The notes beneath the pieces are model-generated. The model made no database searches and was not told the DNA's origin. It worked only from the letters and a program-made list of their open reading frames with translations. This document shows positions 1-37,221 of a DNA stretch of 38,555 bases, in pieces (within the stretch, counting starts at the first letter, position 1; each line of letters starts with the position of its first letter). The stretch lies in the IMG/VR virus record IMGVR_UViG_2537562091_000004; one strand, given 5' to 3'. The translations under genes and the position numbers were made by a program. Source of the stretch: a virus. Its lineage: Duplodnaviria > Heunggongvirae > Uroviricota > Caudoviricetes.

Positions 1-438
1 AGGCCGCAGTCGGTAACCTCGCGCATACAGCCGGGCAGTGACGTCATCGTCTGCGCGGAAATGGACGAACAGTGGGGCTATGTCGGGGCTAAATCGCGCC
101 AGCGCTGGCTGTTTTACGCGTATGACAGGCTCCGGAAGACGGTTGTTGCGCACGTATTCGGTGAACGCACTATGGCGACGCTGGGGCGTCTTATGAGCCT
201 GCTGTCACCCTTTGACGTGGTGATATGGATGACGGATGGCTGGCCGCTGTATGAATCCCGCCTGAAGGGAAAGCTGCACGTAATCAGCAAGCGATATACG
301 CAGCGAATTGAGCGGCATAACCTGAATCTGAGGCAGCACCTGGCACGGCTGGGACGGAAGTCGCTGTCGTTCTCAAAATCGGTGGAGCTGCATGACAAAG
401 TCATCGGGCATTATCTGAACATAAAACACTATCAATAA
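1..438 (+). CDS. insB: IS1 transposase InsB reading frame, 5'-truncated by the window edge
   Basis: Translation ...[36 protein letters not shown]...HYLNIKHYQ is colinear with IS1 InsB from memory; frame is open from position 1. Confidence 0.85.
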
Positions 439-453
439 GTTGGAGTCATTACC
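1..453 (+). mobile_element. IS1-family insertion sequence, 3' portion (5' part lies outside the window); terminal inverted repeat at about 431-453
   Basis: InsB-frame ORF runs open from base 1; the terminal sequence atcaataagttggagtcattacc matches the IS1 end as I recall it. Confidence 0.85.
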
Positions 454-1127: not shown

Positions 1128-1159
1128 TTTTATGGATCACCTTTCTGATTGATTTCATA

Positions 1160-1188
1160 TTGGCGAGGTGACGTGAGTTAAGTAGAAT
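1160..1188 (+). promoter_or_regulatory. Candidate sigma70 promoter upstream of hok (TTGGCG-17-TAGAAT)
   Basis: Hexamers at 1160-1165 and 1183-1188 with a 17 nt spacer; motif match only. Confidence 0.3.
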
Positions 1189-1364
1189 GGCTGCGGGTGC
1201 TTGAGGCTATCTGTCTCAGGCATGAACACTGAAAGGCAGATAGAGAAAAGCCCCAGTTAACATTTCGCGTCCTGCAAGACGCTTAACATTAATCTGAGGC
1301 CCAATCTATGTCTCACAAATGTAGGTTAGCCTCTTACGTGCCGAAAGGCAAGGGGAAGCAGGCT

Positions 1365-1520
1365 ATGAAGCAGCAAAAGGCGATGTTAATCGCCCTGATC
1401 GTCATCTGTTTAACCGTCATAGTGACGGCACTGGTAACGAGGAAAGACCTCTGCGAGGTACGACTCCGAACCGGCCAGACGGAGGTCGCTGTCTTCACAG
1501 CTTACGAACCTGAGGAGTAA
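1365..1520 (+). CDS. hokD: Hok/Gef-family type I toxin (small membrane peptide), HokD/RelF-like
   Basis: MKQQKAMLIALIVICLTVIVTALVTRKDLCEVRLRTGQTEVAVFTAYEPEE is near-identical to Hok/Gef peptides as I remember them; the ORF-track start at 1308 is an in-frame upstream extension. Confidence 0.8.
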   Translation: MKQQKAMLIALIVICLTVIVTALVTRKDLCEVRLRTGQTEVAVFTAYEPEE

Positions 1521-1589
1521 GAGACCTGGCGGGGGAGAAATCCCTCGCCACCTCTGATGTGTCAGGCATCCTCAACGCACCCGCACTTA

Positions 1590-1617
1590 ACCCGGTTCGG
1601 CGGGTTTTGTTTTTTTC
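1590..1617 (+). terminator. Putative intrinsic terminator downstream of hok
   Basis: acccg-gttcgg-cgggt stem-loop followed by tttgttttttt. Confidence 0.4.
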
Positions 1618-1687
1618 TGGCATTCTGGTTTACAATTCGCACGTCAGCCTGAACACCTGACACCTGCTGCGCCAGCAGAGAAAACAG

Positions 1688-1960
1688 ATGGTGCACAAAA
1701 CCAAATTTCACAATTCTGATACCGACCTTGCCATCCGGCATGGGCGGCGTTCACACGCATTTAAAACCGACTGGTACCAACACCCACCATGTACTGAAGA
1801 ACAGGCCGAATGGCTAATTCATAACTACCGCAGACGCGGATACGAGATTAAGAAAGCCCTCAGCCTCGATTATCGTCACTGGATAATCTCCGTCAGGCTT
1901 CCTTACTCTGAACGCCCACCGCGTCCGTCCCGCACATTCCAGCAACGCATCTGGAGGTAA
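1688..1960 (+). CDS. Hypothetical nin-region protein (occupies the position of Qin rem)
   Basis: 90 aa ORF, stop 1 nt before the next gene start (tightly coupled); no motif recognised. Confidence 0.45.
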   Translation: MVHKTKFHNSDTDLAIRHGRRSHAFKTDWYQHPPCTEEQAEWLIHNYRRRGYEIKKALSLDYRHWIISVRLPYSERPPRPSRTFQQRIWR

Positions 1961-1961
1961 C

Positions 1962-3017
1962 GTGCGGGTATTACTTCGACCTGTTCTGGTACCGGAACTC
2001 GGGCTGGTGATCGTTAAGCCGGGCCGTGAATCCATGCCGGTATTCCACAATACCCGGGTACTGGTGGAGCCGGAACCGAAAAGCATGCGTAATCTGCCGT
2101 CCGGGGTCGTTCCTGCCGTTCGCCAGCCGCTGGCGGAGGATAAATCATTACTGCCATTTTTCAGCGACGAACGAGTGATTCGTGCTGCTGGTGGCGCTGG
2201 CGCATTGTCTGACTGGTTACTGCGCCATGTTAAATCCTGCCAGTGGCCACACGGCGATTATCACCACAGTGAAACCGTCATTCACCGTTATGGTACCGGC
2301 GCAATGGTGTTGTGCTGGCACTGCGACAACCAGCTGCGCGACCAGACCTCCGAATCACTCGGGCAACTTGCTCACCAAAACCTGTTTGCATGGATGATTG
2401 ACGTCATACGCCATGCAATGAATGGCTCGCAGGAACGGGAATTATCGCTGGCTGAATTATCCTGGTGGGCGGTCCGCAATCAGGTGGCGGACGCGCTACC
2501 GGAAGCGGTATTACGTCGTTCGCTGGGGTTGCGTGCGGAAAAAATCCGCTCAATGTACCGTGAAAGCGACATCGTACCGGGAGAGCAGACCGCCACCAGC
2601 ATACTGAAGCAGCGCACAAAAAATCTTGCGCCGCTGCCTCACGCCCACCAGCAAAACCCGCCACAGGAAAAGACGGTGGTCAGCATTGCCGTTGATCCGG
2701 AGTCACCGGCTCAGTATCTCCAGCGCCAGAAATCACAACGGGAAGAGATGCCTGTATACACGCGTTGGGTAAAAACGCAGAAATGCATGACGTGTGGCAA
2801 TCAGGCAGATGATCCGCATCACATCATTGGTCATGGACTGGGAGGGATGGGAACAAAGGCTGATGATTTGTTTGTTATTCCGCTGTGCCGTAAATGCCAT
2901 AGCGAACTACACGCCGGGGTAAAAGATTTTGAAGAAAAACACGGCAGCCAGCTGTTGTTGCTGATTCGTTTTTTAATGCACGCGAGAAATTCGGGTGTTT
3001 TGAAGTGGAAAGCATAA
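1962..3017 (+). CDS. YdfU-like (DUF968) prophage protein with C-terminal Cys/His zinc-ribbon or HNH-like motif
   Basis: 351 aa; GTG start after a GGAGG SD; C-terminus CMTCGNQADDPHHIIGHGLGG...CRKCHSELH; size and position match Qin ydfU. Confidence 0.55.
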   Translation: MRVLLRPVLVPELGLVIVKPGRESMPVFHNTRVLVEPEPKSMRNLPSGVVPAVRQPLAEDKSLLPFFSDERVIRAAGGAGALSDWLLRHVKSCQWPHGDYHHSETVIHRYGTGAMVLCWHCDNQLRDQTSESLGQLAHQNLFAWMIDVIRHAMNGSQERELSLAELSWWAVRNQVADALPEAVLRRSLGLRAEKIRSMYRESDIVPGEQTATSILKQRTKNLAPLPHAHQQNPPQEKTVVSIAVDPESPAQYLQRQKSQREEMPVYTRWVKTQKCMTCGNQADDPHHIIGHGLGGMGTKADDLFVIPLCRKCHSELHAGVKDFEEKHGSQLLLLIRFLMHARNSGVLKWKA

Positions 3018-3398
3018 ATGACTGAACGCATAGAATTTGTTTTGCCTTACCCGCCAACGGTGAACACTTACTGGCGTCGTCGTGGCAGCACATATTTTGT
3101 ATCAAAAGCCGGGGAGCGTTATCGCCGGGCAGTGGCGCTTATTGTTCGCCAGCAGCGGCTGAAATTAAGCCTGTCCGGAAGGTTGGCAATAAAAATTATT
3201 GCAGAACCACCGGATAAGCGCCGCCGTGACCTGGACAATATTCTGAAAGCGCCGCTGGATGCGCTGACGCATGCGGGGTTGCTAATGGACGATGAGCAGT
3301 TTGATGAAATCAATATCGTTCGTGCTCAGCCAGTATCTGGTGGACGTCTGGGGGTGAAGATTTACCCCATAATGCTTGAAGGGCAGGTCAAAAAATGA
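3018..3398 (+). CDS. rusA: RusA-family Holliday junction resolvase
   Basis: 126 aa; LPYPPTVNTYWRRRG...DKRRRDLDNILKAPLDALTHAGLLMDD matches RusA motifs including the catalytic RRRDLDN block. Confidence 0.85.
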   Translation: MTERIEFVLPYPPTVNTYWRRRGSTYFVSKAGERYRRAVALIVRQQRLKLSLSGRLAIKIIAEPPDKRRRDLDNILKAPLDALTHAGLLMDDEQFDEINIVRAQPVSGGRLGVKIYPIMLEGQVKK

Positions 3399-5889: not shown

Positions 5890-5965
5890 GGCCCTTTAGC
5901 TCAGTGGTGAGAGCGAGCGACTCATAATCGCCAGGTCGCTGGTTCAAATCCAGCAAGGGCCACCA
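5890..5965 (+). tRNA. ileZ: tRNA with CAU anticodon (tRNA-Ile2/Met type, like phage ileZ), CCA encoded
   Basis: Cloverleaf folded by hand: acceptor ggccctt/aagggcc, D-arm gctc/gagc, anticodon loop ctCATaa, T-arm ggttcaaatcc. Confidence 0.85.
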
Positions 5966-5972
5966 TCACATA

Positions 5973-6049
5973 CCGCCATTAGCTCATCAGGAAAGAGCGC
6001 CAGCCTTCGAAGCTGGTTGCGCGGAGTTCGGGTCCCCGAAGGCGGTCCA
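5973..6049 (+). tRNA. tRNA-Arg(UCG)-like; imperfect acceptor and T stems, possibly degenerate
   Basis: Anticodon stem ccagc/gctgg with loop ctTCGaa; T-loop ttcgggt; one mismatch each in the acceptor and T stems when folded by hand. Confidence 0.5.
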
Positions 6050-6062
6050 TTATCTGTATCCT

Positions 6063-6139
6063 GCGTTGTTAGCTCAGCCGGACAGAGCAATTGCCTTCTA
6101 AGCAATCGGTCACTGGTTCGAATCCAGTACAACGCGCCA
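6063..6139 (+). tRNA. tRNA-Arg (UCU anticodon), CCA encoded
   Basis: Acceptor gcgttgt/acaacgc, D-arm gctc/gagc, anticodon stem attgc/gcaat with loop ctTCTaa, T-arm actgg-ttcgaat-ccagt. Confidence 0.85.
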
Positions 6140-6184: not shown

Positions 6185-6397
6185 CTCACAATTCAGGCGG
6201 TTGACTGTTGTCTGGTTTGCGGGGAGTTTGTTAAAAGAAACTGGCATGGTGAATCCCCCTGTGCGGAGGGGCAATCAGCGAGTAGGTATATGGGATAATC
6301 GCGGATTCAGGTGCTGGTACTGAATTCACCGGGAGGCACCCGGCACCATGCAATGGCACATAGCGCCACTCTCCAGCCCCTCTCCGGAGGGGCTTTT
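6185..6397 (+). repeat. Copy 1 of a diverged tandem structured element of about 215-230 bp (candidate sRNA unit) ending in an intrinsic terminator
   Basis: Shares with copy 2: ctcacaattcag, TTGAC box, gcatggtgaatccccctg.gcggaggggc, caccgggaggcacccggcaccatg, and terminator gcccctc-tccg-gaggggc + tttt (6376-6397). Confidence 0.5.
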
Positions 6398-6588
6398 CTG
6401 TGCCGGATACATCACAGTTTCTGGAACCTTAGGTACTACAGTATCAGTCAGGGTGCTATATTTTCAGATGTGATGAAAGCCTGTCAGCAGGCAGGGCGTA
6501 TCGGAAATGACCCAGTAGAGAAAACGTTGACTCAGATACCGGTGCTGAGTTACCGGGAAACCGGCATCACATGACCGCTATCCTTCCA

Positions 6589-6652: not shown

Positions 6653-6883
6653 CTCACAATTCAGTAAGTTGACAGTTGCCTGTCAGACTGGGCATTTGTT
6701 AAAAAAATTTCGCATGGTGAATCCCCCTGAGCGGAGGGGCGACTGGTGACGGTATAATCTCTGATTATCAAAACGAGAATGACGCGGGTTTAGTGGCACC
6801 GGGCTGAACTCACCGGGAGGCACCCGGCACCATGTGCATGATGATACAGATACGCGGCTTTAGCCCCTCTCCGGAGGGGCTTT
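6653..6883 (+). repeat. Copy 2 of the tandem structured element (candidate sRNA unit) with an internal TATAAT box and terminal terminator
   Basis: Same conserved blocks as copy 1; perfect TATAAT inside the unit; terminator gcccctc-tccg-gaggggc + ttt at 6863-6883. Confidence 0.5.
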
Positions 6884-6892
6884 CTTATGGAC

Positions 6893-36637: not shown

Positions 36638-37221
36638 TGGCATTCAGAATGAGTGAACAAGCACGGACCATAAAAATTTATAATCTGCTGGCCGGAACTA
36701 ATGAATTTATTGGTGAAGGTGACGCATATATTCCGCCTCATACAGGTCTGCCAGCAAACAGTACCGATATTGCACCACCAGATATTCCTGCTGGCTTTGT
36801 GGCTGTTTTCAACAGTGATGAGGCATCGTGGCATCTCGTTGAAGACCATCGGGGTAAAACGGTTTATGACGTAGCGTCAGGGGACGAGTTATTTATTTCT
36901 GAACTCGGTCCGTTACCGGAAAATGTTACCTGGTTATCGCCGGAAGGGGAGTTTTAGAAGTGGAACGGCACAGCCTGGGTGAAGGATACGGAAGCAGAAA
37001 AACTGTTCCGGATCCGGGAGGCGGAAGAAACAAAAAACAACCTGATGCAGGTAGCCAGTGAGCATATTGCGCCGCTTCAGGATGCTGCAGATCTGGAAAT
37101 TGCAACGGAGGAAGAAACCTCATTGCTGGAAGCCTGGAAAAAGTATCGGGTATTGCTGAACCGTGTTGATACATCAACTGCACCTGATATTGAGTGGCCT
37201 GTAAATCCTGTCAGGGAGTAA
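36637..37221 (+). pseudogene. tfa: Tail fibre assembly protein Tfa interrupted by an in-frame TAG (36955-36957)
   Basis: ORFs 36637..36957 and 36979..37221 are in the same frame; lambda-Tfa-like sequence is continuous across the stop (…[24 protein letters not shown]…). Confidence 0.75.

What the first reader, a model, noticed from the sequence alone, without database searches (positions are those of the whole stretch)
1128..1620. hokD-like type I toxin with no annotated antitoxin, next to IS1
The 52 aa peptide is a near-perfect Hok/Gef toxin with its own candidate promoter and terminator. Hok toxins are normally controlled by an overlapping mok frame and a cis-encoded antisense Sok RNA, neither of which can be called from sequence alone. 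In Qin, as I recall, hokD follows relBE; here IS1 and a QueH-like gene lie upstream instead, so the regulatory context may be rearranged.
Basis: partly seen in the sequence, partly recalled or inferred. Interest (0 to 1): 0.45.

Follow-up and report, generated by a model that had tools for sequence, protein, structure and literature searches.

The report
Complete hok/mok/sok toxin-antitoxin cassette
The small toxin gene is real, but it is not missing its antidote: the stretch is an ordinary, complete hok/mok/sok toxin–antitoxin cassette of a lambda-like prophage, found in most E. coli genomes.

Summary
Window 1160-1616 is a complete hok/mok/sok type I toxin-antitoxin cassette in the nin region of a lambdoid prophage. 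The 51-aa Hok (1365-1520) matches Pfam HOK_GEF and differs from K-12 HokD by one residue (I34L).

- an in-frame mok ORF (1308-1520) with its own Shine-Dalgarno;
- a minus-strand Sok promoter (-35 at 1351-1346, -10 at 1328-1323) inside a 30-nt stretch identical to the mutationally validated sokW promoter region of prophage Sp5;
- a ~75-nt Sok RNA (1317-1243);
- the hok leader, which matches Rfam RF01794 (120.5 bits);
- the tac/fbi, tac/ucb and metastable-hairpin pairings, with compensatory changes across 37 loci from six genera.

The context here is not rearranged. queH-hok-DUF968-rusA-Q occurs without IS1 in other E. coli. K-12 Qin is the truncated form, with relBE replacing everything upstream of window 1351. 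IS1 ends 9 bp before queH, about 700 bp from the hok promoter, and leaves the cassette intact.

At least 80% of the stretch occurs in 4024 of 5426 complete E. coli genomes. RefSeq annotates only the toxin CDS. This is already known and of low interest.

The parts
1160..1188 (+). hok mRNA promoter (-35 TTGGCG, 17-nt spacer, -10 TAGAAT)
   Evidence: Only promoter-like site found in 1000-1800. The -10 hexamer is conserved as TAGAAT, TATAAT or TACAAT in homologues, while the -35 region differs between contexts.
1193..1206 (+). tac (translational activator element) at the 5' end of hok mRNA, GCGGGUGCUUGAGG
   Evidence: Pairs with fbi in the full-length MFE fold and with ucb in the 3'-truncated fold. 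Start of the Rfam RF01794 match. Nearly invariant in 37 loci.
1197..1223 (+). Metastable 5' hairpin of the nascent transcript (tac paired with the sequence just downstream)
   Evidence: The first 30 nt fold at -16.9 kcal/mol, z=-4.6. An F-plasmid flm locus of the R1 hok type gives the same hairpin.
1248..1254 (+). ucb (upstream complementary box, AAGCCCC), anti-Shine-Dalgarno for mok
   Evidence: Pairs with tac in the truncated fold; that helix is paired in 99.6% of cells over 37 loci. A fold with ucb paired to the mok SD is only 0.5 kcal/mol above the MFE.
1296..1333 (+). Sok target hairpin (sokT): mok SD GAGGC (1296-1300) paired with dcb GCCUC (1329-1333), with the mok AUG inside it
   Evidence: Folds at -13.3 kcal/mol, z=-2.95. 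Third hairpin of the Rfam model. The stem ends are invariant in 37 loci.
1308..1520 (+). mok ORF (70 aa), in frame with hok and extended by 19 codons at the N-terminus; SD GAGG at 1296-1299
   Evidence: ORF list. The in-frame arrangement also holds at the hokC (L005) and hokW (L004) loci, read from the alignment. Rac-phage and F/R1 loci use a +1 frame instead.
1323..1351 (-). Sok promoter (-35 TTGCCT at 1351-1346, 17-nt spacer, -10 TAACCT at 1328-1323)
   Evidence: Window 1324-1353 is identical to probe YO-597 and to the sokW promoter region of Sp5. Comparing the pro-less mutagenic primers (YO-421/YO-422) with the wild-type sequence shows that they replace TAACCTA, and that construct lost antitoxin activity. 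The offsets from tac match the F/R1 Sok promoter within 3 nt.
1243..1317 (-). Predicted Sok antisense RNA, about 75 nt: a 10-nt single-stranded 5' tail over the mok start codon, a long hairpin, then a UUUUCUC tail. Ends are uncertain by about 3 nt.
   Evidence: Folds at -29.6 kcal/mol, z=-4.9, with 0 of 200 shuffles as stable. The sokW probe YO-592 covers the equivalent region in Sp5.
1365..1520 (+). hok toxin ORF, 51 aa; SD AAGGGGAAG at 1350-1358
   Evidence: Pfam HOK_GEF E=6e-23. One residue (I34L) from K-12 HokD. Identical DNA is annotated as hokD, WP_000813262.1, in FORC_069 and 20AR0300.
1570..1584 (+). fbi (fold-back inhibitory element, CCUCAACGCACCCGC), complementary to tac with one bulged C
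   Evidence: The tac:fbi duplex is -22.6 kcal/mol against -14.3 for the best site elsewhere in the mRNA. It sits at a fixed position about 50 nt after the stop codon in 36 of 37 loci. One pair shows a compensatory change, U-A in 24 loci and C-G in 11.
1589..1616 (+). Intrinsic terminator of hok mRNA (stem 1589-1606, then a T-run)
   Evidence: Only terminator-like site found in 1000-1800. Conserved in K-12 hokD and the Rac phage; the window carries one C>G change that removes one stem pair.

Best explanation
Window about 1160-1616 is a self-contained, complete hok/mok/sok type I toxin-antitoxin cassette. It sits in the nin region (between the replication genes and the Q antiterminator) of a lambdoid prophage.

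Proposed mechanism, inferred from the R1 hok/sok and Sp5 hokW-sokW models:
1. A weak promoter (1160-1188) makes a stable hok mRNA of about 420 nt.
2. While the transcript is nascent, a 5' metastable hairpin hides tac.
3. In the full-length RNA, tac (1193-1206) pairs with fbi (1570-1584). ucb and dcb occlude the mok and hok Shine-Dalgarno sequences, so the RNA neither is translated nor binds Sok.
4. Slow 3' trimming removes fbi. tac then pairs with ucb, and the mok SD/dcb target hairpin forms.
5. At that point one of two things happens. The unstable ~75-nt Sok RNA, made from the minus-strand promoter at 1351-1323, can bind the mok start region and have the duplex destroyed. If Sok has decayed, mok is translated and coupled translation yields the 51-aa Hok, which inserts into the inner membrane and kills or lyses the cell.

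Shown here: the presence, positions, conservation and covariation of every sequence element.

Inferred: transcription, processing, toxicity and the biological role. The most likely role is helping host lysis on prophage induction, as shown for hokW-sokW, and/or post-segregational retention of the prophage.
For: - Toxin: Hok matches Pfam at E=6e-23.
- mok: an in-frame ORF with its own SD.
- Leader: Rfam RF01794 matches at 120.5 bits against a gathering score of 59. The match is on the hok strand at 1195-1370 and ends on the hok ATG.
- Sok promoter: the promoter stretch is identical to the mutationally validated sokW promoter.
- Sok RNA: fold z=-4.9.
- Full-length mRNA: fold z=-6.1, with tac:fbi in the MFE structure. 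The 3'-truncated form switches to tac:ucb.
- Closed conformation: the canonical fold is only 0.5 kcal/mol above the MFE.
- Metastable hairpin: present.
- Conservation of structure: over 37 loci from Escherichia, Kluyvera, Pseudocitrobacter, Citrobacter, Pantoea and Photorhabdus, 85.6% of cells are paired against 37-45% in slid controls. 28 pairs carry double-sided changes.
- tac:fbi: conserved in 36 of 37 loci; the exception is a K-12-type hokC whose fbi is replaced by what I recognise as an IS186 end.
- Layout: element offsets agree with an F/R1-type locus within 3 nt up to the hok ATG.
- Distribution: identical or near-identical cassettes occur in 4024 of 5426 E. coli genomes and 102 phage records, some annotated mok/hok or MokW.
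Against: - There are no expression data for this allele.
- A recent survey cites earlier work in which the chromosomal hokA, hokB and hokC loci did not mediate post-segregational killing (bioRxiv 10.1101/2025.08.07.668861).
- The hok SD here reads AAGGGG, where 34 of 37 homologues read AAGGAG.
- The terminator stem has lost one pair. Either this or the SD change could lower expression.
- The Sok promoter matches the sigma-70 consensus at only 7 of 12 positions, and the generic scan did not report it.
- The unconstrained MFE fold pairs ucb with the hok SD rather than the mok SD.
Confidence: 0.9

Rival explanations
1. Orphan or deregulated toxin: Hok has lost mok and Sok control because IS1 and queH replaced the original upstream context.
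For: RefSeq annotates only the toxin CDS on identical DNA. The generic promoter scan finds nothing on the minus strand. IS1 is present in the window.
Against: All the regulatory elements are present and conserved: mok, the Sok promoter and RNA, tac, ucb, dcb and fbi. Homology to IS1-free prophages resumes at window 454, so IS1 lies outside both queH and the cassette. The truncated form is K-12 hokD, not this locus.
Confidence: 0.03
2. Structurally complete but phenotypically silent relic: the cassette is transcribed weakly or not at all and gives no killing, maintenance or lysis phenotype, as earlier work reported for chromosomal hok loci.
For: [quoted passage not shown] The window carries an uncommon hok SD variant (AAGGGG) that adds a pair to the occluding helix, and a weakened terminator stem.
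Against: The cassette is 100% identical in an unrelated genome, and 446 records reach at least 99% identity. Covariation shows that selection maintains the RNA folds. The closely related hokW-sokW (92.6% nucleotide identity, identical Sok promoter) is active from its native prophage.
Confidence: 0.2
3. The cassette's main role is abortive-infection defence against other phages rather than help for its own prophage.
For: [quoted passage not shown]
Against: The same survey found no enrichment of hok near known defence systems. The only prophage-borne relative tested increased the yield of its own phage. Nothing in the window bears on this question either way.
Confidence: 0.15

Closest known systems
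hokW-sokW of Sakai prophage 5 (Sp5/933W-type Stx2 phage); Takada et al. 2021, PMC8621323
   Same: Both are prophage-borne hok/mok/sok cassettes. Nucleotide identity is 92.6% over 418 nt (locus L004, which contains the paper's primers exactly). The 30-nt Sok promoter stretch is identical. tac, ucb, the mok SD, dcb and fbi are the same, and mok is in frame in both. By my translation of L004, Hok is 46/51 identical.
   Different: The Sok 5' tail/sokT region differs at 7 of 22 positions (1301-1322), so the two Sok RNAs may not cross-react. The C-terminal Hok residues differ. hokW lies about 3 kb from the att site of Sp5, whereas this cassette lies in the nin region, and the sequence after fbi differs.
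hokD (relF) of the K-12 Qin prophage
   Same: The toxin differs by one residue (I34L). The 3' UTR, fbi and terminator are the same. The downstream neighbourhood is the same type: a hypothetical ORF, a DUF968 gene and the Q antiterminator.
   Different: K-12 matches only from window 1351 onward. relB-relE replaces the hok promoter, tac, ucb, sokT, the mok start, and the Sok -10 element and transcript. K-12 also has rem, which the window lacks. The window therefore holds the full-length form of which K-12 hokD is a 5'-truncated derivative.
hok/sok (parB) of plasmid R1 and flm of F, the family archetype
   Same: The element order is the same and the offsets from the 5' end are nearly the same: mok ATG +114 vs +116, Sok -10 at +129 vs +132, Sok -35 at +152 vs +155, hok ATG +171 vs +174, fbi +376 vs +389. 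Both have the same metastable hairpin. Both have the same ucb:mok-SD pairing, GCCCC with GAGGC and one C·A mismatch, read directly from the two sequences.
   Different: Hok proteins are only about 43% identical. mok is in the +1 frame in F/R1 and in frame here. Sok here carries an extra inner hairpin of 16-18 nt, so the RNA is about 75 nt rather than about 64 nt. That insertion is present in the prophage group and absent from hokC and Photorhabdus loci. The host element is a prophage rather than a conjugative plasmid.

Membership tests
hok/mok/sok type I toxin-antitoxin family | A membrane toxin ORF of about 50 aa with the Hok/Gef domain | tested here: met
   Pfam PF01848, E=6e-23, 80.6 bits against a cut-off of 22, covering profile positions 1-42 of 42. 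NCBIfam Hok models match only below their curated cut-offs: 49 bits vs 73, and 38 bits vs 89.
hok/mok/sok type I toxin-antitoxin family | An overlapping mok reading frame that starts upstream of hok and has its own Shine-Dalgarno | tested here: met
   ORF 1308-1520, 70 aa, with GAGG 8 nt upstream of its ATG. The mok ATG column is conserved across the aligned loci.
hok/mok/sok type I toxin-antitoxin family | A cis-encoded antisense Sok RNA with its promoter inside the mok/hok leader on the opposite strand | tested here: met
   TTGCCT-17-TAACCT on the minus strand at 1351-1323. The stretch is identical to the sokW promoter whose -10 mutation abolished antitoxin activity. Its position matches the F/R1 Sok promoter. 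The RNA itself was not observed.
hok/mok/sok type I toxin-antitoxin family | Sok RNA architecture: a short single-stranded 5' tail, a hairpin and a U-rich 3' end | tested here: met
   The 75-nt fold is -29.6 kcal/mol, z=-4.9, with a 10-nt free 5' tail covering the mok AUG.
hok/mok/sok type I toxin-antitoxin family | The hok mRNA leader structure (Rfam RF01794) | tested here: met
   120.5 bits against a gathering score of 59, E=6e-28, model positions 1-157 of 157. The match is on the hok strand, so it models the leader. Sok itself lies on the complementary strand within it.
hok/mok/sok type I toxin-antitoxin family | Long-range tac (5' end) to fbi (3' UTR) pairing that locks the full-length mRNA | tested here: met
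   Present in the MFE fold. The duplex is -22.6 kcal/mol. It is conserved in 36 of 37 loci with compensatory U-A to C-G and GAGG/CCUC to GAGA/UCUC changes.
hok/mok/sok type I toxin-antitoxin family | Alternative tac:ucb pairing in the 3'-truncated mRNA, and the metastable 5' hairpin | tested here: met
   The truncated fold switches to tac:ucb. That helix is 99.6% paired across 37 loci but never varies, so it gives no covariation evidence. The nascent hairpin folds at -16.9 kcal/mol.
hok/mok/sok type I toxin-antitoxin family | Hok toxicity, 3' processing of hok mRNA, and Sok-dependent degradation of the duplex | not testable with these tools
   These need Northern blots, RACE and expression assays. 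They have been shown for relatives only (PMC8621323; PMC9841398).
K-12-type hokD (relBEF operon arrangement in Qin) | hokD lies immediately downstream of relB-relE and lacks its own leader, mok and sok | tested here: not met
   The window has queH upstream and a full leader. K-12 homology starts only at window 1351. The RefSeq name 'HokD' fits the protein but not the locus architecture.

The most novel reading that the evidence does not exclude
The part of the cassette that sets Sok-to-target recognition (the Sok 5' tail/sokT, window 1301-1322) is the fastest-diverging functional segment among otherwise near-identical prophage cassettes. Mean pairwise difference is 0.29 there against 0.05 in the hok CDS. 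E. coli genomes carry up to 9 copies. This allele could therefore be one of a set of mutually orthogonal hok/sok pairs, diversified so that co-resident prophages cannot neutralise each other's toxins. Separately, the private IS1 insertion 9 bp upstream of queH appears in none of 5426 complete genomes. It might block early-operon read-through into the cassette and uncouple Hok activation from prophage induction.
Probability: 0.2. Interest if true: 0.3.

Novelty: already known. Interest (0 to 1): 0.1.

Why it matters
It matters little beyond correct annotation. The stretch shows that genome pipelines annotate only the Hok CDS, so a reader may wrongly infer an orphan toxin. It also shows that the K-12 reference hokD is the truncated form of a cassette that is intact in most E. 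coli prophages. For anyone studying this prophage, the cassette probably influences lysis timing or prophage retention, as hokW-sokW does in Sp5.

Tried and rejected
1. The generic sigma-70 and terminator scan and my own relaxed scan did not report the Sok promoter, which matches the consensus at only 7 of 12 positions. They also missed the Sok terminator, whose stem has internal loops. I located both by homology to sokW and F/R1 instead.
2. The unconstrained MFE fold of the full-length mRNA pairs ucb with the hok SD (GGGG in this allele) rather than with the mok SD, as the R1 model has it. Enforcing the canonical pairing costs only 0.5 kcal/mol, so I did not read this as a real difference.
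3. MAFFT placed the bulge-free Photorhabdus fbi one column out of register. This understates pairing in half of the tac:fbi helix, so I re-tested each locus separately with duplex folding.
4. NCBIfam Hok models match below their curated cut-offs. That does not help decide between the names HokD and HokW.
5. A search for the IS1-queH junction in complete E. coli genomes found none, so I did not identify the source strain.
6. I considered whether IS1 disrupts the cassette, as IS elements do at K-12 hokA, hokC and hokE. I rejected this because IS1 ends at 452, outside both queH and the cassette.
7. I did not run protein homology searches or structure prediction, because they would add nothing to a 51-aa peptide with a clear family match.

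Full report
**Observation**

The ORF at 1365-1520 (+) encodes a 51-aa peptide, MKQQKAMLIALIVICLTVIVTALVTRKDLCEVRLRTGQTEVAVFTAYEPEE. It matches Pfam HOK_GEF over the whole profile at E=6e-23. Aligned with the K-12 Qin locus, it differs from HokD only at codon 34, ATC to CTC, which gives I34L. A promoter-like site, TTGGCG-17-TAGAAT at 1160-1188, and an intrinsic-terminator-like hairpin at 1589-1606 followed by a T-run were each the only such site found in 1000-1800. The window begins inside IS1: the InsB fragment is at 61-438, and the element ends at 452. A QueH gene occupies 462-1127. The peptide is 51 aa, not 52. IS1 is separated from the hok promoter by queH, a distance of about 700 bp.

1. 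*mok.* An ATG at 1308 opens a 70-aa frame that runs in frame into hok. GAGG lies 8 nt upstream of it.
2. *The hok leader.* Rfam RF01794 ('sok') matches 1195-1370 on the plus strand at 120.5 bits against a gathering score of 59, E=6e-28, over the full model. The consensus ends on the hok ATG. The model therefore describes the hok leader, made of the tac/ucb stem, the complement of the Sok terminator, and the target hairpin. Sok itself lies on the other strand.
3. *The Sok promoter.* On the minus strand, TTGCCT (1351-1346), a 17-nt spacer and TAACCT (1328-1323) sit where the Sok promoter lies in an F-plasmid flm locus of the R1 hok type. Offsets from tac are +129/+152 here and +132/+155 there. 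Window 1324-1353 is identical to oligonucleotide YO-597 of Takada et al. 2021 and to the Sp5-type locus L004, which contains that paper's primers exactly. Comparing their 'pro-less' mutagenic primers (YO-421/YO-422) with the wild-type sequence shows that the mutation replaces TAACCTA. That construct lost antitoxin activity, and sokW supplied in trans partly restored it.
4. *The Sok RNA.* The predicted transcript, about 1317 to 1243, folds into a 10-nt free 5' tail over the mok start codon, a long hairpin and a UUUUCUC tail. The energy is -29.6 kcal/mol, z=-4.9.

**The folding programme of the mRNA**

- The first 30 nt form the metastable hairpin at -16.9 kcal/mol. The F-plasmid (R1-type) locus forms the same hairpin.
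- The full-length RNA (1193-1614) has a strongly non-random fold, z=-6.1. In its MFE structure, 1193-1206 (tac) pairs with 1570-1584 (fbi).
- Removing the last ~45 nt switches tac onto ucb at 1248-1254.
- The canonical closed state described for R1 (PMC9841398) has ucb on the mok SD and dcb on the hok SD. Here it is only 0.5 kcal/mol above the MFE.

**Comparative test**

I aligned 37 distinct loci from Escherichia, Kluyvera, Pseudocitrobacter, Citrobacter, Pantoea and Photorhabdus.

- The window's structure is paired in 85.6% of cells against 37-45% when partners are slid. 28 pairs show double-sided changes.
- In tac:fbi, one pair is U-A in 24 loci and C-G in 11.
- Per-locus duplex folding finds the tac:fbi duplex about 50 nt after the stop codon in 36 of 37 loci. 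GAGG/CCUC varies to GAGA/UCUC and to GAAG/CUUC.
- The one exception is a K-12-type hokC. Its fbi is replaced by what I recognise, from my own knowledge, as an IS186 end.
- The tac:ucb helix is invariant, so it is consistent with the model but gives no covariation evidence.

**Context**

The window is a lambdoid prophage. It carries a DUF968 gene, three tRNAs, and RusA-like and Q-antiterminator-sized ORFs. Near-identical genomes annotate RusA, an antitermination protein, a methyltransferase, and lysis, terminase, head and tail genes over the matching DNA.

The order queH-hok-hypothetical-DUF968-rusA-Q occurs without IS1 in strain FORC_069, where the 493-nt finding is 100% identical. Strain 20AR0300 has the same queH-hok start without IS1, but there DUF968 and rusA are missing and Q is a partial pseudogene. 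Homology to these prophages resumes at window 454, so IS1 is inserted 9 bp upstream of the queH ATG. None of 5426 complete E. coli genomes has this junction.

K-12 Qin has relB-relE-hokD-rem-hypothetical-ydfU-Q. Its similarity to the window starts only at 1351. So K-12 hokD is the 5'-truncated derivative and the window holds the full-length form. A Kluyvera genome carries the same relE-hokD junction.

Hits from other contexts begin at about window 1175 and end at 1592-1620, which delimits the mobile cassette from just upstream of the -10 hexamer to fbi or the terminator.

**How common and how well known**

At least 80% of the finding is present in 4024 of 5426 complete E. coli genomes, with a median of 2 and up to 9 places per genome. 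It also occurs in 102 phage records, variously annotated MokW, HokD, 'host killer' or mok/hok. A recent survey reports that hok is enriched in prophages (bioRxiv 10.1101/2025.08.07.668861). hokW-sokW of Sp5 is 92.6% identical to the window. It has been shown to be a working type I system that is activated on RecA-dependent induction and doubles phage release. RefSeq annotates only the hokD CDS on identical DNA, which explains the 'no annotated antitoxin' impression.

**Mechanism and caveats**

I commit to the standard hok/mok/sok mechanism. Its steps, in order, are:
- a metastable nascent fold;
- a tac:fbi-locked full-length mRNA;
- 3' trimming;
- a tac:ucb switch that exposes the mok SD and target hairpin;
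- then either Sok binding and degradation, or mok-coupled translation of Hok and membrane damage.

The sequence elements are shown here. Transcription, processing, toxicity and role are inferred from relatives.

Two variants in this allele might lower expression. The hok SD reads AAGGGG where 34 of 37 loci read AAGGAG. One terminator stem pair is lost. A survey cites earlier work in which chromosomal hok loci failed to give post-segregational killing, so a silent but intact cassette remains a real alternative.

**Verdict**

This is a correct sighting of a Hok toxin, but the suspicion of an orphan or rearranged locus is unfounded. It is an already known, very common, complete cassette, and its interest is low.

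Noticed in passing
window 1301-1322: The Sok 5' tail/sokT segment, which is also the Mok N-terminus, is the most divergent functional part among 10 otherwise close prophage and plasmid cassettes. Mean pairwise difference is 0.288, against 0.05 in the hok CDS and 0 in the mok SD. With up to 9 copies per genome, this suggests allele-specific Sok recognition.
   Followed up: partly
window 1354: The hok Shine-Dalgarno reads AAGGGG, where 34 of 37 homologues read AAGGAG. The G adds one pair to the helix that occludes the SD in the closed fold. Strain FORC_069 and an E. albertii locus (L007) share it.
   Followed up: partly
window 1500-1508 (Tyr47 codon within GCUUACGAA): UACGAA around the Tyr codon is invariant in all 37 aligned loci. 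[quoted passage not shown]
   Followed up: no
window 1-452: A partial IS1 ends 9 bp upstream of the queH ATG. No complete E. coli genome of 5426 has this junction, so the insertion appears private to the source strain. It could be polar on early-operon read-through into queH and hok.
   Followed up: partly
L018 (E. coli ECDA1023, hokC locus) and L029 (Kluyvera sp. CHPC 1.2972): L018 is a K-12-type hokC. What I recognise, from my own knowledge, as an IS186 terminal sequence replaces its fbi, and it is the only one of 37 loci without a tac:fbi duplex. L029 shows the same relE-hokD junction as K-12 Qin in a Kluyvera genome.
   Followed up: partly
window 5890-6136, 6215-6405, 6683-6892, 36980-37178: Other Rfam matches above gathering score: three tRNA genes downstream of the methyltransferase gene (annotated tRNA-Ile and two tRNA-Arg on near-identical DNA in other genomes), two copies of sRNA family STnc100, and one IS009 element near the tail-fibre end.
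   Followed up: no
window 1562-1741 (-) and 1688-1960 (+): RefSeq annotates a 59-aa minus-strand ORF that overlaps the hok terminator and fbi as a hypothetical protein, which is probably spurious. The 90-aa plus-strand ORF that follows has no Pfam or NCBIfam match. A similar-sized hypothetical ORF occupies the same position in K-12 Qin, upstream of ydfU. The window lacks rem.
   Followed up: no
window 2709-3019: Identity to the FORC_069 prophage breaks inside the DUF968 gene, from 99.8% before to 96.3% after with a gap between. This indicates a mosaic junction typical of lambdoid phages.
   Followed up: no
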